From Octopus sinensis (taxonomy: Eukaryota): a stretch of DNA of 64,000 bases. The first letter of the stretch is position 1. Each line of letters opens with the position of its first letter. The notes beneath the pieces are model-generated. The model did no database searches and was not told where the DNA came from. It worked only from the letters and a program-made list of their open reading frames with translations. The stretch spans positions 7,440,001-7,504,000 of the forward strand of contig NC_043026.1 of NCBI RefSeq assembly GCF_006345805.1, in the 5' to 3' direction. Both the position numbers and the translations under genes were made by a program. Shown one piece after another: positions 3,765 to 47,303 of the stretch.

Positions 3765-6265
3765 GTAACCATTAACATTAACGTTCTTTGAGTATAACTA
3801 CACTTTAGGGCCCCAGTGACTTTGCGTCTTCGTACTTTTCTTAGTTGTTTATTGTTTATTTGTTTTAATCATTGGACTACGGCCATACTGGGATCACCGC
3901 CTTGAAGGGTTTTGAATCTGGTACTCGTTTTGTCGGTCTTTTCGCCAAACTGCTACCTCACAGACGTAAATAAACCAATACCGTTTATCAAGTAGTGGGA
4001 TAAATAGAAGCGCGCGCGCACTCACTCTTATATATATATATACGATGGGGTTCTTTCAGTTTCCAATTACAAGATCCACTCACAAGGTTTTGGTCAGCTA
4101 AGGGTTACAGTGGGAGACATCCGAAGGTGTCACGCAATGGAATTGAACCCGGAATCATGTGGTTGGGAAGTAAGCGTCTTGCAACGCAGACTGCTCATGT
4201 TCCTTGATGAAATTTTGTGGGAAACATTTCCGAAGGTTTTGATGACGTTTATGTCCATGAAATGCTTTTAAAAACATTTCTGTTTTGGAGAAAATAATTA
4301 AGACGTAATTTTTTAAGAAATTGGGGAATTTATAAAATCTTGACTTGAATTACTGAAACGAAATAAAATACCTGCGTTTACTACAGGTATTGCTGTGGTT
4401 TAATTTCTGTGGACTTTTAGATATCATTACATCTAATAATTAATGCTGTTTTAATTAAATACTTTAGAGTCACCAAAATATTTCTTTTTTACTTTTCTAA
4501 TAAATTTGCTTTTTCTTTTTTCATTTCGTTTCGGTATTTCCCGGCCTCATGCATCTTGGAAATTTCGCAGTGGTCCTTCGCTAAATTTACCAAAAAACAA
4601 AAGAAATCCAGGGGAAGGTCTGTAACAGATCGCCTTCATGTGTGGGATTTTTAGAGGAATTTTGCTTTAAGTACCTTCTCATAATTTTTTTAATTCGTTT
4701 TGCATGCAACAACAGCTGCCCCACACAATCTCACAACTCTCTAATGGCATGGGCACTAAATGATTGTATGCTGGACAGTTTCGTTTCCATGCAAGCATCT
4801 CGGGAAAGTTTGGCTGTTGGCACTTTCATGCCTGAAGTGCTTGTCTCAAACATAAAAGACTCCCTCTGGAACACTGCCATGCTGAAGACACTGTATTACT
4901 TGATTCTCTACCTGATGAATTTCTTATAGGAAATACCTTTATGTTTTCTCCTGCATGTCCAATTTGGTAACTCCTATTAGGAAATGAAACACATGTAATG
5001 GTGACTATATAATACCTGAAAATTTTTCCAGTCTCCTGTTTTACTAAATTTAAATGTACAAAGGAGAAATCAGATTGACATTACACTTGTTTCGTTACTC
5101 AGACGATATCTCACACAATGCAATTGTAAATTATCAATTTGATTTTTCCTTTCCCCATTTCGATTCTTACTTTTATTATTCACTGTGTGTGTGGCTTCTT
5201 TTGAGCCTACTGGATCTTACCTTGGAGTTTATTATGCATGTTGGAATTTTGGGAAAATATCTCCGTAAGATTATTCCTTGTTCTGGTCCCTGACTCCCTT
5301 CCTGTGCTTGCAGTGCTTCATCAACCAAGAGGAACCCTTCATCTTGAAGGACGAGAACTTGTATGGCTGAAAGCTGGCTTCAGATGGTACAACACGGTGG
5401 CTTCTACTTTGAATGTTTGGCTGTTTTTGTTGTAACTAAAATACGTTACCAAAATATTACAAAACTTTTGATTCAACACAATATGAACTTAAATACATTT
5501 AGGTTATAAAATGTTCAGCTGTTCTTGGTTAATCATCCTCATCGTTTAACGTCCGCTTTCCATGCTAGCATGGGTTGGACGGTTCAACTGAAGTATGGGA
5601 AGCCCGAAGGCTGCACCAGGCTCCAGTCAGATCTGGCAGAGTTTCTACAGCTGGATGCCCTTCCTAACGCCAACCACTCTGTGAGTGTAGTGGGTGCTTT
5701 TTACGTGCCACCCGCACAGGTGCCAGGCGAGGCTGGCGAACGGCCACGCTCGGATGGTGTTTTTTATGTGCCACCGACACAGGTGCCAGATGAGGCTGGC
5801 AAACGGCCACGCTCGGATGGTGTTTTTTATATCAACAGATTCTCCGAAGAAATTCCCTGAAAAAAAATATTCTTTGTTTTTATATCTTTGCATTTCAAAT
5901 CTGTCTCCTTCATATCTTACATTATTGTTTCTTTATCTTGTTTCAGAATATTGGATGACCTTGGCATTGATTCATTCTTCATCAGATGCGTCGTCAATAT
6001 TTATCATCTTCGAAAGACTAAAAGAAAATGTGATGCAGAACGGATTTGATAATTCCGAAGAATTATGTTGAAATAAGTGGAATGACGTCAATTCTCTTCT
6101 TCAAATTTGTTTTCCTTTTTAATTAAACTTGGATGATTTCGCAAAGAATTTTACAGCATCTTCAAATATCGACAAAGATTATGGTTACTGGAAATACAGC
6201 AGTAGAAATATTTGTCAGGAATATACAATAAAACGAAAATAGGGAAAATATCCCCTTTGGATTAT

Positions 6266-7411
6266 ATGAGAAACTTAATTGGGTTTTATCCTGAAGATAT
6301 GCCAAAAGTGATTGGAAAGTCATCCTATGGTGATGTCCATGGTAAGCCGTTCTCTGGAAGTAGTGACTTAACAAAACTCAAGCGCATTCCTGCCGGAGAG
6401 AAGTCCCATCAGTGTGATATCTGTGGCAAATCATTCACTGAAAATGGTGATTTAACTAAACACAAACGTATTCATACAGGAGAGAAGCCGTTTCACTGCG
6501 ATGTGTGTGGTGTGTCTTTCTCTCAAAAAGGTAACCTCACCACTCATAAACGGATTCATACAGGGGAGAGACCCTATTGCTGTGACATCTGTGGTAAATC
6601 ATTCTCTCAGAGTGGTGAACTGACTATTCACAACCGTATTCACACAGGAGAAAAACCCTATCGTTGCGACATCTGTGGTAAATCGTTCTCTCGTAAAGGT
6701 AACCTAACCACTCATAAGCGTATTCATACAGGAGAGAAACCATATCACTGTGATATCTGTGGTAAGTCCTGCTCGGGCAGTAGCAACCTGATTACTCACA
6801 AGCGCATTCACACAGGGGAGAAGCCATATCAATGTGATGTCTGTGACAAGTCGTTCTCTCAGAGTGGTGAGTTAACAAAACACAAACGTGTTCATACAGG
6901 AGAGAAGCCATTTCATTGTGATATCTGTGGTAAATCATTCTATGGAAGCAGCGAATTAACCATACATAAGTATTTTCATGCAGAAGAGAAAATATACCAG
7001 TGTGATATCTGTGGTAAATCATTCTCAAGGGGGAGCGATTTAACAAGACACATACGAATTCACACAGGAGAGAGGCCTTACAACTGCGATATCTGTGGTA
7101 AATCATTCTCTGAAAACAGTGTCTTGACTAAACACAGACGTATTCATACGGGAGAGAACCCATACCATTGCGATATCTGTGGTAAGCCGTTCTCGCAGAG
7201 TGGTGAATTAACCAGACACATACGTGTTCATACGGGAGAGAAACCATACCACTGTGATATCTGTGGTTCATCCTTTTCTCAGAGTGGTGAACTGACAACA
7301 CACAAACGTGTCCATACAGGGGAGAAGCCATATCACTGTGATGTCTGTGGTAAATCATTCTCTCAAAAAAGTCACTTAACTACGCATGTATCTCTTCATG
7401 CAGAAATGTAA
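6266..7411 (+). CDS. C2H2 zinc-finger protein (12 intact fingers plus 1 degenerate)
   Basis: Tandem CxxC-x12-HxxxH units with TGEKP(Y/F) linkers. The first in-frame ATG is at 6266 (the ORF track starts at TTG 6212) and the stop TAA ends at 7411. A likely exon acceptor TTTCAG lies at 5941-5946. The upstream N-terminal region appears frameshifted (see findings). Confidence 0.9.
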
Positions 7412-7775: not shown

Positions 7776-8083
7776 TGTAAATTTTATCTAGTCCATGCAA
7801 GCATGGAAAGTGGAGGTTAAAACTGATGATGCTGGTGTATGTAGATGTATATATGTGTGTGTGTGTGTGTTTAAACTGATGTAATTAATAACAGCTTCGA
7901 TTAGTTCTGATTGGGTCACAGGTTTTGGTTTTGTATTTATCAATTTAATTAGATTTTGTTAAGACAATTACTAAATTTAATATAAAATGAACTAAATTTG
8001 ATCTTACAAAATCTCTTTTCTTGCATGGTTTTTAGAACACAAAAGAAAATAAAAGAAGACTTTTTTTATTTAAAAGAAATATT

Positions 8084-9930
8084 TTAATCTTTTTCATAAT
8101 TCACTTTGATTGTTACATTTGCAAAATATGACCTTGTTTTTGGTTTTAGCGTTACGAAGTATTTTCCCACTTTTGGATGTCTAATCGAAAGGAATTGGTC
8201 CGTTCCGGGCTGACTTGATCGCCATTTTGTCAAACGTTCAGAGCACCGACTTCTTTTGTAGCAAGCATAAACATCTACTTCTCCGGTTCCAGCAAAAGTA
8301 ATAACTTTCACTTTCTTTAATGATACCGTCTTCACATTGAGTTTAAACAAGATTTTCTCTCCAGGAACTGAACTCAGACCCTCAACTACTGAGTTCTCAT
8401 GAATGTTACGGATGTACATAGATATATCGCAGACTTTGATGCCTACTTTTGCAAAAGATTCTTGTACAGAAGCTGTATCATAGCCAAGATCATAAGTGGA
8501 CTTCATGATGTCACAAGCAGCCTCTGTGAAGTTGGTTTTTGGATGCCAGTAGAAACGGTTGCTGTGTGCCGTTATCTGGAATACTTTCTTAACACTCCAG
8601 TCTTTGTAATTGGCTAACAGACAGTAGAACCGGTTGAACACTCCGCTGAGGTAGTGCACATCCATATCATCGGAGATGTTTCCAGCATCTGTGATTGATT
8701 TACCATCCTCCGATTGTTTACAAAGTTTGCGTATCGAATTTTTGGTGACGCCGCCTCCAGCTTCCCAGTCGTTGCTTCCTTTTTCAAAATATTCGGCTGC
8801 CTCTCCGGCCAGGTCACTGAAGGATTCGTCGATGCCCCCCGACTGACCCTTGTACACCAGGTTTGAATGTTCTTCTGTGAAGCAGTGTGTCACTTCATGA
8901 GCAACTATGTCGAGACCGACAAGAGGCAGGAAGGTGTCATCACCATCACCAAACGTGAAGTTTCGGCCGTTGTAGTTAGCCACGGCCGTGTTGTGTCCGT
9001 AGTGCACCCGAAAGATCATAGGCAATTGTTTCTTCGGGGGCACTTTCACCCATTCCATGTACATATTGTGGATAATGGTACCGTAGAAAAGAGCATCATT
9101 TACCGGGGAATAAGCTCCATTTATTTCATCCTTTGCACCATTCTTGCAGTTGGTATGATAAGTTTTTTCATCCTCATCGGAGAGAAACTCCTTCCCATTC
9201 AGGTTCACAACAATCACGAAGCTGTTGCGGAAATAGCAATCTTCTCCCGTCCGCCTCACCTGCAAATAAGGGAGCAGTTCCCCGTATGTTTTCTTCCCTA
9301 TCAATTTGTTCCCTCCTATGCCTTTCATCTGATATTTCTCTCTCGCAGTTTCTAGTGTGTTCCATTTGTCTACAAGCCTTCCAGTCTTCGCATTGATCAT
9401 CATGCAAAATCGATAATTTTCCCCATCAGACACAGCAAAGTATTGAACTCGGTAAACCAGAATTCCGATACTGTCCTTCACATAGATCATCAACTGAGGT
9501 TTGTCGCTGTCTATGCGGGCCCCTTCCATAGGGAATTTGCCATACATCAGAGCTAATTGCACAGCTTCCTGTTCAGTGACATTTGGTATTGTAGAGTTGA
9601 TGTCATCATCAAGGTTTTGAACTAGTTTACCTGTCACCTGGCCAGTGTACACATGGGTTTTGGCATCTGTCTCCACGGTGAGGGTGGCATCAAACACGGG
9701 AAGCCCTCTGTAGGTCTCGTGGTACTTTTTGATGTCTGTTCCTTGTACGCTTGGTGCTGAATCTGTTAATTCGACATCCTCGTCTTTGGTTAGACCAAAC
9801 AGGTCACGTGTGGTGATCATGTGACTCGGCTGTCGCTTCACCATCTCACTCAGCGTCTCCACGTTGGACAGGAACACGTCCCGAGCCTGTCGCCATTTCG
9901 CTGACGTCACACAATGGCTCCCCAGGAACG
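8084..9930 (-). CDS. M4 family (thermolysin/vibriolysin/pseudolysin-like) zinc metalloprotease, exon 2 of 2 (FTP + PepSY propeptide, catalytic domain, C-terminal PPC domain)
   Basis: Uninterrupted ORF with HEVTH (HExxH, 8885-8899), GQSGGIDESFSDLAGEAAE (third Zn ligand), DVHYLSGVFNR, INGAYSPVNDA and GGNKLIGK. Propeptide motifs are YHETYRGLPVF and INAKTGRLVDKW, and the tail is PPC-like (GLSSVPGE...GTGEVDVY...PKVGKYFV). A (CT)n polypyrimidine tract plus AG acceptor lies at 9932-9931 (phase 1). Stop TAA is at 8086-8084. Confidence 0.93.
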
Positions 9931-9979
9931 CTAGAGAGAGAGAGAGAAAGAGGAAGATAATAATGGTTTCAAATTTTGC

Positions 9980-10720
9980 CACAAGGGCAGCAACTTTAGG
10001 GGAGGGGGCGAGTCAGTTACATAGACCCCAGTCTTTAACTGATACTTATTCTATCGACCCCGAAAGCATAAAAGGTAAAGTCGACCATGGCGGAATTTGA
10101 ACTCAGAACATAACAGCAGACAAAATACCTATTTCTTTACTACCCACAAGGGGCTAAACACAGAGAGGACAAACAAGGACAGACAAAGGGATTAAGTCGA
10201 TTACATCGACCTCAGTGCGTAACTGGTACTTAATTTATCGACCCCGAAAGGATGAAAGGTAAAGTCAACCTTGGCGGAATTTGAACTCAGAACATAACGG
10301 CAGACAAAATACCTATTTCTTTACTACCCACAAGGGGACAAACACGAGGACAGACAAATGCATTAAGTCGATTACATCGACCCCAGTGTGTAACTGGTAC
10401 TTAATTTATCGACTCTGAAAGGATGAAAGGCAAAGTCAACCTCGGCGGAATTTGAACTCAGAATGTAGCGGCAGACGAAATACCTATTTCTTTACTACCC
10501 ACAAGGGGCTAAATACAGAGAGGACAAACATGGACAGACATAGGTATTAAGTCGATTACATCGACCTCCCCAGTGCGTAACTGGTACTTAATTTATCGAC
10601 CACGAAAGGATGAAAGGCAAAGTCGACCTCGGCGGAATTTGAACTCAGAACGTAACGGCAGACGAAATATCGATCAGAATTTCGCCCGGTGCAATAGCGT
10701 TTCTGCCAGCTTGCTGTCTT
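9980..10720 (-). mobile_element. SINE family B with about 4 tandem ~180-bp units (in M4 intron)
   Basis: Repeated GACCCCGAAAGGATGAAAGGCAAAGTCGACCTCGGCGGAATTTGAACTCAGAAC units. Other copies at about 2455-2580, 21510-21900, 30870-31280, 43800-44340, 52020-52250, 56590-56810 and 59770-60180. Confidence 0.75.
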
Positions 10721-10952
10721 TGATGGGCGAAATACTGTTAAGTATTTTGTCCATTGCACTAATGATTCTGTCAGCTCATCGCCTTAAAGAAGAAAAAAAT
10801 AATAATAATATTTGAAGAGAATATTATGAGAAAAAGATCTTTAACCCTTCGGCAGCAGCAGTTTTCTGTCGAAAGGAATGGTTTTTTTATTCACAAGTCT
10901 TTTATTAATCATGCATTATCTTGTGGCTTTGAGGTTTTGATGGACGTAACTC

Positions 10953-11346
10953 TCTTTTACTTGTTTCAGTCATGTGACTGTGGCCATGCTGGAGCACTGC
11001 CTTTAGTCGAAGAAATCGACCCCAGGACTTATTCTTTGTAAGCCTATTACTTATTCTATCGGTCTCTTTTGCCAAACTGCTAAGTTACGGGAACGTAAAC
11101 ACACCAGCGTCAGCTGTCAAGTGATAATGGGGAGACAAACACAGATACACAAACATATTCACACACACACACACATATATATATATATACATACATACAT
11201 ATATATGGCAGGCTTCTTTTAGTTTCCATCTACCAAATCCACTCACAAGGCTATAGTAGAAGACACTTGCCCAAGGTGTCACACAGTTGGACTGAACCCA
11301 GAACCAAGTGGTTGGTAAGCAAGCCACTTACCACACAGCCACTCCT
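10953..11346 (-). mobile_element. SINE family A copy (in M4 intron)
   Basis: Reverse complement of the same consensus with an internal deletion. Confidence 0.7.
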
Positions 11347-11782
11347 AATAATAATAACAACAATAATAATAATATCAATACTAATATTATTACTATTACT
11401 AAGGTATGTGCTAATTCTCTTATTACCACAATCATCATAATTATTAATTAGAATTTATGTGATAAAATGCTGAAGAGAGAGAAAAGGGGTGGGTGTGAGG
11501 AGAGGTGAAGGGCTTTAGTTATCTTTTGATATGGGAAAAGACATTATCCAGTTATTATCATTATTATAACTTGTTGCTCTTATTATCATCATTATTATTA
11601 TTATTATTATTATTAATGTTATGGCAGTGAGCTGGCAGAATCGTTAGCACATCAGGCATAAAGCTTTGCAGTATTTTGCCTGTCACTAGGTTCTGAGTTC
11701 AAATTCCACTGAGGGTGACTTTGCCTTTCGTCCTTATTATTATTATTATATTATTATTATTATATTATTATTATTATCATTG

Positions 11783-12030
11783 TGGAGGCATGTGGTTTAG
11801 TGGTTAGGGTGCCAGCACCATGATTGTAAGATTGTGGTTTCGATTCCTGGACCGGGCGACGTGCTGTGTTCTTGAGCAAAACACTTCATTTCACATTGCT
11901 CCAGTCCACTCAGCTGGCAAAAATGAGTAACACTGCGATGGACTGTCGTCCCGTCCAGATGGAGAACACATAGACCATTGAAACTGGGAAACCAGGCCCA
12001 TGAGCCTGGCTAGGCTTTAAAAGGGCGTAT
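11783..12030 (+). mobile_element. tRNA-derived SINE family C
   Basis: GGAGGCATGTGGTTTAGTGGTTAGG...GGTTTCGATTCC boxes; an inverted copy at about 51640-51880 and degenerate tandem copies at about 47304-48010. Confidence 0.7.
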
Positions 12031-12040
12031 TTATTTATTA

Positions 12041-12076
<36 letters not shown>

Positions 12077-12189
12077 CATCTTCATTATCCTCGTTAATTA
12101 AACTACTATTAACTGAACTAATTCTCCCTACTATTAAAACAGTTGTTACAGAGTTATTATAGCCACGACTGCTTTGATAAGAATTACGT

Positions 12190-12370
12190 GTGTTGTTATG
12201 ACCGAATTTATATTCGTTTGAAGTGACAATGGCAGGACCTTTATTAGGTGTGGTAGAATAAAAGAGTTTTGTCGTAAACAAGTTAAACATCTGGTGATAT
12301 TTATGCTGTGGAGGGAACTTTGCTTTAATAATGCCAAAGAATTGTTCCAGCAATCCCTTAACATTTAAGC
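12190..12370 (-). mobile_element. Penelope-like element remnant
   Basis: FFGIIKAKFPPQHKYHQMFNLFTTKLFYSTTPN resembles the PLE post-RT linker. Confidence 0.5.
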
Positions 12371-14109
12371 AGAAATGTGATGTACCCCAGAAAAATATGA
12401 CTTCCCCCCACCTCTCTTACCTGGAGTATAGGGGACAAAGGAGCATTTGTAGTAAATGATGGACATAGTTGACATCAGGATCCAGGATCATCATTCTGGT
12501 AAGATCCTGTGGGGTCAGGTCTAAACTGAAGGACAGCATGAGTACAGCACCCCAGGGGTGGTATACAGCTTGGACTGGTCTATCATAGCTTGCTTCCTAA
12601 CCACATGGTTCTGGGTTCAATCCCACTGCATGGCGCCTTTGTCAAGTGTCTTTTACTATAGCCTCGGGCCAACCAAAGCCTTATGAGGGGATTTGTTAGA
12701 TGGAAACTGAAAGAAGCCTGTTGTGTATATATATGTATATATTTATGTGTTTGTCTCCCCCAACATCACTTGAAATCTGGTGTTCATTCATTCCATTTCA
12801 ATATTCTTCCAAAACCGTATTCCTTACACAGTCTACAGTCAACAAACTTAGCCACATTATCATGCCCCCTTCTATTGTGGTTTTGGGCCAGTTTGCTAGA
12901 TTCACTCTCACCATATGAGATTGTTCCATTTTCGCTGCAAAGGGGTGATTCACTGCTCTTATCTATGCAGAACTTGGTACAATTAGTTCTCAGAGCTTGT
13001 TCCTGGATGCTACAAATCAGGGCATCAGGGCATCCTTTCAGACCATTTAGCCACGTCCAGGTGTTGGTCTTATTTTCCCCTTCAATTTCTCTGACCCCAA
13101 ATCACTAGACTGTGAGAGCAACACCTCCACCATTAGGTCACGGGTCTTTGGATATTGAAAGCTATAAGGGTTTTTATAATCACCAGTAGAAGATCAATAT
13201 CTAAAGATGTGAGGTGTGCAACTTTTCCTCATTAAGAAAAATGCTTTGTTCAATAAGACAGAAGAGGCAGAAATGCAATAATTGTGGGTTTCAAATTTTG
13301 GCACAAGACCAGCAATTTCTGTGGCGGGAGATAAATCAATTACATCAACCCCAGAACAGCTGGTTCATATTTTGTTTAAAGGTGGGTACTGTTAATCAAA
13401 ATGTTAACTTTGTTAACCGTTAATCTGTTAACCAAAAAGTAAACTTTGATAAACATCAATTTGTTAATTCTTTAAAAATGTAAGAGAAGTTATCGATAAA
13501 CCGTTAATGTTTATTTTAATTATAGAAACCCTCCCCCCCAAACCAGTTTTTGCTCTAGAATCACCTAAAAACACCTTTAAAAAGGGCCAAAACTATAAAA
13601 TCCTTTAACTTCAATTCAAATGAAGTTAACTCAAGTAGATTTGTGTTAATGGAATTTAATTAGTCCAATAATGATTTCCAATGTTAACTTAAAATTGAAA
13701 TTGTTAACAAAAATGTTAACTTCATTAATTAGGGGTTTGGCACCCAGGTTTGATTTTATTGACCCCGAAGGGGATGAAAGGAAAAGTCGACTTTGGGGGA
13801 TTTTGAACTCAGAATGTAAAGAGAGCTGAAATACCACTTAGCATTTTTACAGGGGCACAGTAATGAATCTGCCAGCTAACGACAGCCTTGGAATAATTAC
13901 TAATAACGAATTCTAATAGGAGCTGGGTTTATTATGGAGAAACTCAACTAAATAACCTTTCAAGTATTAGACCGGAGACTGACACACACACACACTCTCT
14001 CTCTCTCTCTCTTTCTCTCTCAATGTTTTGCTTTGTTAAATTCTATCAGATCAGAATATACATGTGTCACATAAAACAATCCACTTTACTTTTTCTTTCA
14101 CTTTTCATT

Positions 14110-14328
14110 CTCTGTCTGTCTACCCGTCTGTCTGTCTGTCTGTTTTTATTCATCCATCCATCTATTTATTTATCTCTCTCTCTCTCTCTCTCTCTCCACC
14201 TCTGTCTGTCTGTCCATCCATCTCTGTCCATCACTCTATCTATCTATATCTATCTGTCTGTCTGTCTATCTATCTATCTTTCTATCTGTCTATCTGTCTA
14301 TCTATCTCTCTGTCTGTCTGTCTATCTA

Positions 14329-14367
<39 letters not shown>

Positions 14368-14371
14368 TCTA

Positions 14372-14407
<36 letters not shown>

Positions 14408-14411
14408 TCTA

Positions 14412-14455
<44 letters not shown>

Positions 14456-14531
14456 TCTATATGTCTGTCTGTCTGTCTCTCTGTCTGTCTGTCCATCCAT
14501 CTCTGTCCATCACTCTATCTATCTATATATA

Positions 14532-14599
<68 letters not shown>

Positions 14600-14690
14600 C
14601 TATCTATCTATCTGTCTATCTATCTCTCTATCTATCTATCTATCTGTCTGTCTGTCTATCTATCTATCTGTCTGTCTGTCTGTCTGTCTA

Positions 14691-14733
<43 letters not shown>

Positions 14734-14754
14734 GTCTGTCTGTCTGTCTATCTG

Positions 14755-14789
<35 letters not shown>

Positions 14790-14834
14790 GTCTGTCTGTC
14801 TGTCTGTCTATCTGTCTATCTATCTATCTATCTA

Positions 14835-14900
<66 letters not shown>
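14110..14900. repeat. (TCTA/TCTG)n tetranucleotide array
   Basis: Direct reading; source of the spurious 300-aa ORFs. Confidence 0.95.
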
Positions 14901-15326
14901 CCTGACTGCTCGTCTGTCTGCCTGTCTAATTTTCTCTCTATCTCCTTTTGTCTGTATATATGTGAGACAGCTATTTAAATTTAAAAAGAAATATTTCTAA
15001 ATATCTATTATATTATTATCTAATATATAAATATGAAAATTGTCTAATTAACATTTTTAAATATATCATTATACATATTTATCATATATATATATATATA
15101 TACATATATATACATATATATACACATATATATATACATATATATATGATAATATATATTTGAATGTATGTTATACATAAGGAAAAAATTATAAGCTTTT
15201 GTATTAATTTCCCCCTTAATTGGTTTTGCAAGCTGGCAACTTGATGAATATACATACATATGATTGATTGATTGATTGATTCTAGTTTCAGCTCATGAGC
15301 TGTGGCCATGCTGGGGCACCGCCATT

Positions 15327-15358
<32 letters not shown>

Positions 15359-15501
15359 AATATGAGGGAATCTAATTCCAAACTTACAGGGAATTTTGCA
15401 CTTTACTTTATCATCGTTATATGTTTTATCTTATATTTAATCTTTCTATAAGATGTAATTTTTCATTATTGAATTGATAAAAGGTGTTTTTTTTTCTAAT
15501 T

Positions 15502-15572
<71 letters not shown>

Positions 15573-16011
15573 ATATATTATATCTATAATACACACATAT
15601 TTATATAAATACAGAGTGAGAGAGAGAGAGAGGCACACATATGCACATCCACATCCACATGGCTATAAATATACCCATGACTTTCAGAAACATATTTTTA
15701 CAGTTTCAGAATCGATGAAGCATGGACTCAACTGCCTGCATCAGTTGTTCGCTGTCAGGAAACGAACATCCTTCAGGTCTTCCATACTTCCTGAAATTTT
15801 GCTAACATTTTTTTCTTTTAGTCTTTTATCTGTTTCAGTCATTTGACTGTGGCCATGCTGGAGCACTGCCTTTAGTCGAGCAAATCGACTCCCAGGACTT
15901 ATTCTTTGTGAGCCTAGTACTTATTCTATCAGTCTCTTTTGTAGAACCGCTAAGTTACAGGGATGTAAACACACCAGCATCGGTTGTCAAGCGATGATGG
16001 ACACACACACT

Positions 16012-16074
<63 letters not shown>

Positions 16075-16142
16075 ACACACACACACAGATGCATGTACAT
16101 ACAGACACACACTTACACCAAGAAATTGTACGTTTAACTCAC

Positions 16143-16191
16143 CAAGTATTACGAGAAACAGGAGCAGGACCCCAACTCTACAGGTAGCCAT
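16143..16191 (-). CDS. M4 protease exon 1 (signal peptide MATCRVGVLLLFLVIL)
   Basis: ATG at 16191 followed by 16 codons plus 1 nt, then a consensus donor G|GTGAGT. Phase 1 matches the acceptor at 9931. The join gives MATCRVGVLLLFLVILAFLGSHCVTSA-KWRQ and a 631-aa preproprotein. Confidence 0.8.
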
Positions 16192-16473
16192 CGTCTCTCT
16201 GTGTCACAGTGGTCAGTCAGAATTGGACGATAGCCAGAATTGGTCAAGCAGAGTCACAGCAAGGATGGAACAGTGGACTTTGAGCCAGGGGACAGAGGCA
16301 AATGTTTAAAACAGCCGACTTTCCAGGTGTAGGGCCTTATACGCGGTTGACGGTTGCGCCACACAGAGAGGGCCTTCAGTCTGATGCGGACAGAGTGAGT
16401 GGACACTGTTGCTATGAGAGAGAGAGAGTGGATGCTCACGCTCGGGTTGTGGAACACTCGTTCAAAATGGGGG

Positions 16474-16556
16474 TATTATATAAGTGAGGGGGGGGAGCTT
16501 TATGGGGGGTGGGGGTGGAAATGAAAACAGGCCGAGACAATCTTTTGTCTGATTGG
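16474..16556 (-). promoter_or_regulatory. Putative Pol II promoter of the M4 protease gene (TATA, CACCC boxes, CCAAT)
   Basis: On the minus strand: TATATAA at 16482-16476, CCACCCCCACCCCCC at about 16518-16504 and CCAAT at 16556-16552. Order and spacing are canonical, about 290 nt upstream of the ATG. Confidence 0.5.
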
Positions 16557-16957
16557 ACAGTCACCGGTTATGTGTTGCTGCCTGTTTGTCTGTCTGTCTG
16601 TGTGTATATGTGTGTTTGTGTGTGTGTGTGCGTGTATTTTGGTGTCTATGCGTCGCCAAACTGGCTTCTGTTTCAGCTCGTTAGTAGATTGGTATTTAAA
16701 AGCAACTGTAGAATCTTCATTATCCTACTCAACGCATTCTCTCTCTCTGACACACACACACACACACGTATGCATGCACACACACACACTGCCATGCGCT
16801 TACATTTATGTGTGTTTGTGTGTGTTGTACATAAGCATATATGTATGTATGTATGCCTGTATATACATCAATTACTCTCACCCCCTCTGAACACACACAT
16901 ATATTATATATACATATATAAATATATACATACATATACATACATACATACATATAC

Positions 16958-47203: not shown

Positions 47204-47303
47204 NNNNNNNNNNNNNNNNNNNNNNNNNNNNNNNNNNNNNNNNNNNNNNNNNNNNNNNNNNNNNNNNNNNNNNNNNNNNNNNNNNNNNNNNNNNNNNNNN
47301 NNN
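47204..47303. other. Assembly gap (100 N)
   Basis: Run of N. Confidence 1.

What the first reader, a model, noticed from the sequence alone, without database searches (positions are those of the whole stretch)
9931..16556. The M4 gene has a separate eukaryotic signal-peptide exon, a 6.2-kb spliceosomal intron and a TATA/CCAAT promoter
Seen: the ORF-track N-terminus (IIIFLFLSLSL) is just the translated polypyrimidine tract behind a GTG. A 49-nt exon at 16191-16143 (ATG...G|GTGAGT) splices in phase 1 to AG|CG at 9930, giving a classic signal peptide with a VTSA cleavage site. TATA, CACCC and CCAAT elements lie upstream in normal order. This argues against bacterial contamination. Inference: a host promoter and signal exon were captured, or an intron was gained after transfer. 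A TATA-type promoter would fit gland-specific, high expression.
Basis: partly seen in the sequence, partly recalled or inferred. Interest (0 to 1): 0.75.

Follow-up and report, generated by a model that had tools for sequence, protein, structure and literature searches.

The report
Octopus bacterial-type protease with ancient intron
This octopus gene encodes a bacterial-type zinc protease whose predicted secretion signal is split by a real, spliced 6.2-kb intron; the gene model is already annotated, its likely bacterial origin is already published for a related octopus, and the intron is likely as old as molluscs.

Summary
The two-exon structure is real but not new. Exon 1 (coding part 16191-16143) joined to 9930 gives a 631-aa protein identical to the RefSeq record 'elastase [Octopus sinensis]'. 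Contigs from 3 of 4 runs laid (three studies, RNA by guess) leave the genome at 16143 and continue at 9930. The O. bimaculoides orthologue is ZnMP2, published in 2018 as horizontally acquired. The capture or intron gain is not an octopus event: all 9 other M4 loci examined have a phase-1 acceptor at or near the same place, an oyster orthologue shows a 27-codon insertion inside its signal peptide, and the octopus copies fall into two clades that both contain bivalves. The promoter claim is weaker: a TATA-like box 30-32 nt before a conserved initiator-like motif is kept in 4 of 4 close copies, but CCAAT in 2 and CACCC in 1, and contigs reach only 16357-16370, not 16450. Gland-specific expression is untested. 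One added observation: a KR/RR site early in the propeptide occurs in 44 of 46 animal-clade and 3 of 48 bacterial proteins, likely a host convertase site.

The parts
16552..16556 (-). CCAAT motif; kept in 2 of 4 clade-A copies; function unproven
16507..16517 (-). Two CACCC motifs in a C-rich stretch; seen in 1 of 4 clade-A copies, likely incidental
16476..16482 (-). TATA-like box (TATATAA), 30-32 nt before the initiator-like motif; TATAAT or TATCAA at the aligned place in the 3 close paralogues
16445..16452 (-). Conserved initiator-like motif (..CACAAC); predicted start at 16450, not mapped
   Evidence: not reached by contigs
16192..16357 (-). 5' UTR of exon 1, minimum extent covered by spliced contigs (one relative's contig reaches 16370); no upstream ATG; contains a second TATA-like word at 16341
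16143..16191 (-). Coding part of exon 1 (49 nt): n- and h-region of the predicted signal peptide, MATCRVGVLLLFLVIL plus one base
9931..16142 (-). Phase-1 GT-AG intron, 6212 nt; 29% tandem repeats plus interspersed repeats shared with other loci
8084..9930 (-). Exon 2 coding part: signal c-region, propeptide, M4 catalytic domain, C-terminal domain aligning with the bacterial C-terminal (PPC-bearing) region, stop
9899..9910 (-). VTSA, predicted signal peptidase site A27|K28 (by the -3/-1 rule and alignment; SignalP not available)
9833..9838 (-). KR at residues 48-49, predicted proprotein-convertase site typical of the animal clade
8885..8899 (-). HEVTH zinc-binding motif (residues 361-365); third ligand E385 and H442 also intact
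8065..8070 (-). AATAAA polyadenylation signal; contig X2's length implies an end near 8058 if collinear

Best explanation
This is a spliced, two-exon Octopus sinensis gene for a pseudolysin/vibriolysin-type M4 zinc protease that was likely acquired from a bacterium once, before the mollusc classes split, and likely gained its single phase-1 intron inside the signal-peptide coding region at about that time. Shown: splicing 16143 to 9930, intact catalytic motifs, the same exon layout in the paralogues. Inferred: the 27-residue signal routes the protein into the ER; a host convertase likely cuts at KR48-49; the propeptide likely folds and inhibits the enzyme and is removed near residue 211 as in bacterial relatives; the mature enzyme likely works outside the cell, most plausibly as a digestive-gland protease. 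The TATA-like box at 16482 likely drives transcription from about 16450, but it is an octopus-lineage promoter, not a trace of the transfer.
For: Junction in 3 of 4 runs laid, three studies. Joined protein identical to XP_029653636.1. Pfam M4 domains above cut-off; best PDB match pro-elastase, E 4e-84. 9 of 9 other M4 loci examined have a phase-1 AG acceptor at or within a few codons of this place; a first coding exon was located for 8 of them (49, 49, 49, 49, 49, 52, 46, 28 nt), and the ninth has an annotated 16-residue leader (P0424). Oyster read-through P0240 has 27 extra codons inside the signal peptide relative to RefSeq P0396. Trees: clade A (window gene, cuttlefish-type, oysters, scallops, pearl oyster) and clade B (octopus, bivalves, gastropods, a chiton cluster) are sisters with SH-like 95-99 (for names). 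KR/RR in 44 of 46 animal-clade versus 3 of 48 bacterial rows. Orthologue ZnMP2 was amplified from hepatopancreas cDNA (PMC6011040).
Against: Intron positions outside octopus are read from translated read-throughs, not DNA; signal peptides align poorly and phase-1 introns there are common in secreted animal proteins (recalled), so parallel gain is possible. In one search the A+B grouping was unresolved (53). The donor is unresolved: the animal clade is sister to the pseudolysin-like bacteria with 80-83 support and groups with a long-branch Legionella row. Contigs stop at 16357, 16357 and 16370, 80-93 nt short of the predicted start. The animal rows are related, so 44 of 46 counts one event, not 44. 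No activity, cleavage or tissue data for this protein.
Confidence: 0.8

Rival explanations
1. The incoming bacterial reading frame captured a host promoter and a host signal-peptide exon (exon shuffling), rather than gaining an intron inside its own signal sequence.
For: Exon 1 holds just the n- and h-regions and shows no visible likeness to the bacterial leaders in alignment A1; symmetric phase-1 signal exons are a classic shuffling unit (recalled).
Against: Bacterial relatives carry their own leader peptides, and the c-region and cleavage site (SA|KW versus AA|QW in P0016) lie on exon 2 and align with them, so no host signal was needed. Any donor trace is likely erased after more than 500 million years (age recalled).
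Confidence: 0.3
2. Clades A and B came from two separate transfers, or gained their signal-region introns independently.
For: Only about 31% identity between clades; their grouping was unresolved in one tree; promoters of A and B are unrelated in sequence.
Against: Grouped at 95-99; same phase, same 10-codon distance to the cleavage site and the same 49-nt coding exon in the window gene and two C11 copies; shared KR/RR site.
Confidence: 0.12
3. The main transcription start lies near 16357-16370 or downstream of the second TATA-like word (16341), and the 16482 box is not the working TATA box.
For: Contigs of two studies end at exactly 16357 with no loose end, a third at 16370; the 16482 box reads TATCAA in 2 of 4 copies; TATAAGG at 16341 is kept in 3 of 4 copies.
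Against: Contigs cannot show starts and are trimmed at tips; paralogue conservation begins at the 16482 box and keeps the 30-nt spacing to an initiator-like motif; the 16341 word lies inside transcribed sequence in all 3 contigs.
Confidence: 0.3
4. The M4 frame is bacterial contamination or an unspliced gene starting at GTG 9982.
For: A 642-codon open frame without coding introns and top non-mollusc hits all bacterial-type.
Against: Spliced junction; 15.1-Mb contig; neighbouring C2H2 zinc-finger frame; orthologues across molluscs.
Confidence: 0.01

Closest known systems
RefSeq XP_029653636.1 'elastase [Octopus sinensis]'
   Same: Identical 631-aa protein including the exon-1 leader.
   Different: Nothing; the automatic annotation already has this gene model.
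O. bimaculoides ZnMP1-7, horizontally transferred Zn-metalloproteinases (Liu et al. 2018, PMC6011040; whole text read, figures and supplements not seen)
   Same: ZnMP2 = XP_014774680.1 is the 631-aa orthologue P0122 with the same leader; bacterial origin and hepatopancreas expression reported.
   Different: The data paper's text does not discuss exon structure, promoter, the A/B clades or the dibasic site. The companion Gene 2018 paper was not held and may do so.
Pseudolysin (P. aeruginosa elastase), vibriolysin/HapA, MCP-02; MEROPS M4
   Same: Prepro architecture, HEXXH + E + H catalytic set, 33-37% identity.
   Different: Spliced eukaryotic gene, KR/RR site in the propeptide, median 8 versus 4 cysteines in the first 520 residues, D instead of N before the third zinc ligand.
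Domesticated horizontally acquired secreted enzymes in animals (nematode cellulases, aphid and beetle cell-wall enzymes; recalled, no call)
   Same: Bacterial-type frame with few introns, eukaryotic signal peptide, host promoter, later duplication.
   Different: Different enzyme family and, here, a likely origin before the mollusc radiation.

Membership tests
Peptidase family M4 | HEXXH zinc motif | tested here: met
   HEVTH 361-365, invariant in alignment A2
Peptidase family M4 | Third zinc ligand Glu about 20 residues downstream and catalytic His | tested here: met
   E385 in DESFSD, H442 in VHYLSG
Peptidase family M4 | Pfam PF01447 and PF02868 above curated cut-off | tested here: met
   65 and 88.1 bits versus 22.4 and 24.4
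Peptidase family M4 | FTP-type propeptide | tested here: inconclusive
   PF07504 19.6 bits, cut-off 21; aligns to pro-elastase and the MCP-02 propeptide, E 2.5e-8
Peptidase family M4 | Zinc-dependent endopeptidase activity | not testable with these tools
   needs an assay
U2-type spliceosomal intron | GT-AG ends, pyrimidine tract, joined form in transcripts | tested here: met
Secretory signal peptide | Charged n-region, hydrophobic h-region, small residues at -3 and -1 | tested here: met
   R5; hydropathy up to 3.8 over residues 6-16; T25 and A27. SignalP itself was not available.
TATA-type Pol II promoter | TATA box about 30 nt upstream of a mapped start | tested here: inconclusive
   Spacing to an initiator-like motif kept in 4 of 4 close copies (the pattern search caught 3, the fourth reads TATAAT at the aligned column); start not mapped
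TATA-type Pol II promoter | Conserved upstream CCAAT and CACCC elements | tested here: not met
   CCAAT 2 of 4, CACCC 1 of 4 close copies
Domesticated horizontally acquired gene | Physically in the host genome, spliced, with orthologues in relatives | tested here: met
Domesticated horizontally acquired gene | Nested inside a bacterial clade with good support | tested here: inconclusive
   Sister to or within pseudolysin-like bacteria with weak support; Liu et al. report nesting
Domesticated horizontally acquired gene | Absent from eukaryotic outgroups | not tested
   All named animal hits were molluscs, but a 15-row sister clade is mostly unnamed

The most novel reading that the evidence does not exclude
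One bacterial pseudolysin-type protease entered an animal genome before annelids and molluscs split, at once gained a phase-1 signal-region intron and a furin-type site that put its activation under host control, and has been kept and multiplied across spiralians for over half a billion years as an overlooked digestive or defensive enzyme family.
Probability: 0.3. Interest if true: 0.5.

Novelty: already known. Interest (0 to 1): 0.24.

Why it matters
It confirms that an enzyme family described as almost exclusively bacterial (PMC7851659, passages read) is a true, spliced octopus gene and not contamination. The useful addition is the dating: the intron and the dibasic site look ancestral to molluscs, so this is a marker of a very old transfer rather than an octopus novelty. 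It also warns that prokaryote-style gene calls misread the pyrimidine tract as a signal peptide in this family.

Tried and rejected
Junction was read from a lay of the exon-1 region only, so small extra exons inside the intron were not excluded by laying; the loose ends joining 16143 directly to 9930 make them unnecessary for these contigs. No holder was on record as RNA ('no RNA holder listed'; runs are RNA by guess), so tissue and level could not be read; run X15 laid nothing. First tree attempt did not finish; later trees used FastTree or quick IQ-TREE without bootstrap, with rows chosen by me: 74, 50 after dropping 24 redundant or long-branch rows, 51, 85. No AU test was run. ESM Atlas gave only bacterial M4 clusters and no structure. 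Four look-ups of earlier scan findings returned nothing. Ten literature searches found only PMC6011040 on this family in octopus; none showed a paper on its intron, promoter or dibasic site, but subscription papers are not held. Passages of PMC7656900 and PMC12032550 had nothing on M4; bioRxiv 10.1101/2020.02.02.930693 reports expanded 'zinc metalloproteinases' high in snail hepatopancreas, but I could not confirm that they are M4. No structure prediction was run: the family is clear from sequence. Venom role considered: no evidence found either way.

Full report
Observation. Joining 16191-16143 to 9930-8084 gives an open frame of 631 codons beginning MATCRVGVLLLFLVILAFLGSHCVTSAKW. Among 24 ATG-to-donor phase-1 candidates in the 30 kb upstream, this is the most hydrophobic. 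The intron is 6212 nt, GT-AG, 29% tandem repeats.

Splicing is shown. Twenty of 24 listed runs, from 8 studies, hold at least half of the exon-2 words; none is on record as RNA. Four runs were laid on 16100-16720: in X1, X2 and X7 (three studies, two organisms) a contig covers exon 1, leaves at 16143 and continues with letters that equal window 9901-9930; X15 laid nothing. The own-genome search found no second 100% copy that could be an intronless retrocopy (12 matches at 10 loci). The contigs reach 16357, 16357 and 16370, so exon 1 is at least 215 nt.

It is already annotated and its origin published. The joined protein is identical to XP_029653636.1 'elastase [Octopus sinensis]', whose contig length equals that of G000 contig C30. 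It has both Pfam M4 domains above cut-off and matches pro-elastase at E 4e-84, with HEVTH, E385 and H442 intact. The O. bimaculoides orthologue XP_014774680.1 is ZnMP2 of Liu et al. 2018, one of seven Zn-metalloproteinases reported as transferred from bacteria and amplified from hepatopancreas cDNA (PMC6011040, whole text read, figures and three supplements not seen). The companion Gene paper was not held and may already cover introns and taxonomic range.

The intron is old. All 9 other M4 loci examined have a phase-1 AG acceptor in the signal region. The three close copies (65-73% identical) have 49-nt coding first exons and introns of 8.6, 11.3 and 5.1 kb. The five distant C11 copies (about 31% identical) have first coding exons of 49, 49, 52, 46 and 28 nt, matching annotated N-termini P0127, P0128 and P0130, with the split codon 10 codons before the predicted cleavage site, as in the window gene. 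The C3 copy's exon 1 was not in the 10 kb fetched, but its annotated protein has a 16-residue leader (P0424). Outside octopus the evidence is indirect: an unspliced oyster read-through carries 27 extra codons inside the signal peptide compared with the Crassostrea virginica RefSeq protein, and several unnamed read-throughs change character at a similar place (weak).

The family is mollusc-wide or wider. Named hits include cuttlefish, Argonauta, oysters, scallops, pearl oyster, clams, abalone, Pomacea, Physella and a chiton. Trees give clade A (window gene plus bivalves; 98-100) and clade B (octopus C11/C3 plus bivalves, gastropods, chiton cluster; 97-100), sisters at 94, 95 and 99 but unresolved. 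So the A/B duplication predates the bivalve-cephalopod split. A further 15-row clade sits beside them; of 10 proteins looked up from that part of the tree only one had a name, a Siedleckia transcriptome, a parasite of polychaetes (recalled), so an annelid source is possible but unproven. The donor is not resolved (80-83 support; long-branch warning).

A second sign of domestication. In the stretch 30-62 residues before the conserved propeptide glycine, KR or RR occurs in 44 of 46 animal-clade rows and 3 of 48 bacterial rows (4 and 2 of the 50 rows given per group were too short to score). The window protein has KR at 48-49. This likely is a proprotein-convertase site added in the animal ancestor; the rows are related, so it is one event, and cleavage is untested.

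Promoter. Conservation among the four clade-A copies starts at about 16482 and runs to the ATG. A TATA-like word lies 30-32 nt before a conserved CACAAC motif in all four, reading TATATAA, TATAAT, TATCAA and TATCAA; that fits a start near 16450. CCAAT is kept in 2 of 4 and CACCC in 1 of 4. Against it, two contigs stop at exactly 16357 with no loose end, a weak hint since contigs cannot show starts. The C11 copies have their own unrelated promoter with a strong conserved TATAAATA-type box in 4 of 5, so a TATA core seems usual for the family, but the sequences are not homologous between clades and cannot date from a shared capture in any visible way. Nothing here tests gland-specific or high expression.

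Mechanism. Shown: transcription, splicing, an intact M4 active site. Inferred from the family: signal cleavage at A27, propeptide-assisted folding and inhibition, release of the catalytic domain near residue 211, extracellular zinc-dependent proteolysis. Most likely role: digestive-gland enzyme, resting on the orthologue's hepatopancreas cDNA only.

Verdict. A correct and careful reading of a real gene, but the model is in RefSeq and the transfer is in print. Interest 0.24.

Noticed in passing
window 16439-16381, minus strand: Candidate 59-nt intron in the 5' UTR: GTGAG conserved in 4 of 4 clade-A copies and a pyrimidine tract ending in CAG in 3 of 4. Lies beyond the contig ends, so untested.
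   Followed up: partly
window 6206-7411, plus strand: C2H2 zinc-finger frame of 401 aa with at least 11 fingers, converging tail to tail with the protease gene about 670 nt away.
   Followed up: no
G000:C30 about 14201890 (4.2 kb upstream of the C30 paralogue's promoter): A duplicated roughly 60-nt core-promoter fragment with TATATAAT and the CACAAC motif but no exon 1 behind it.
   Followed up: partly
L019 (G000:C10 about 4189300-4191100), L022 and L030 (G000:C11): Three of the 9 paralogues look broken: the C10 copy has frameshifts and a stop, one C11 copy has a frameshift and a shortened first exon, another has a stop after 49 codons of exon 2; a further partial copy lies upstream of the latter.
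   Followed up: partly
window 10017-10669: 184-nt unit repeated 3.6 times just upstream of the acceptor, with many matches in the other fetched loci; likely an octopus SINE-type repeat.
   Followed up: no
window 16218-16234: 17-nt deletion in the 5' UTR of organism B's contig relative to the window.
   Followed up: no
proteins P0253 and P0350-P0363 (ENA): A cluster of 21 near-identical M4 proteins, many on contigs of the same length, in an unnamed organism outside clades A and B: likely a tandem array.
   Followed up: no
proteins P0422, P0428, P0430: Animal-clade M4 proteins whose profile match is split in two stretches, suggesting an insertion of about 50-80 residues before the catalytic domain.
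   Followed up: no
window 47204-47303: A run of 100 N, far from the gene.
   Followed up: no
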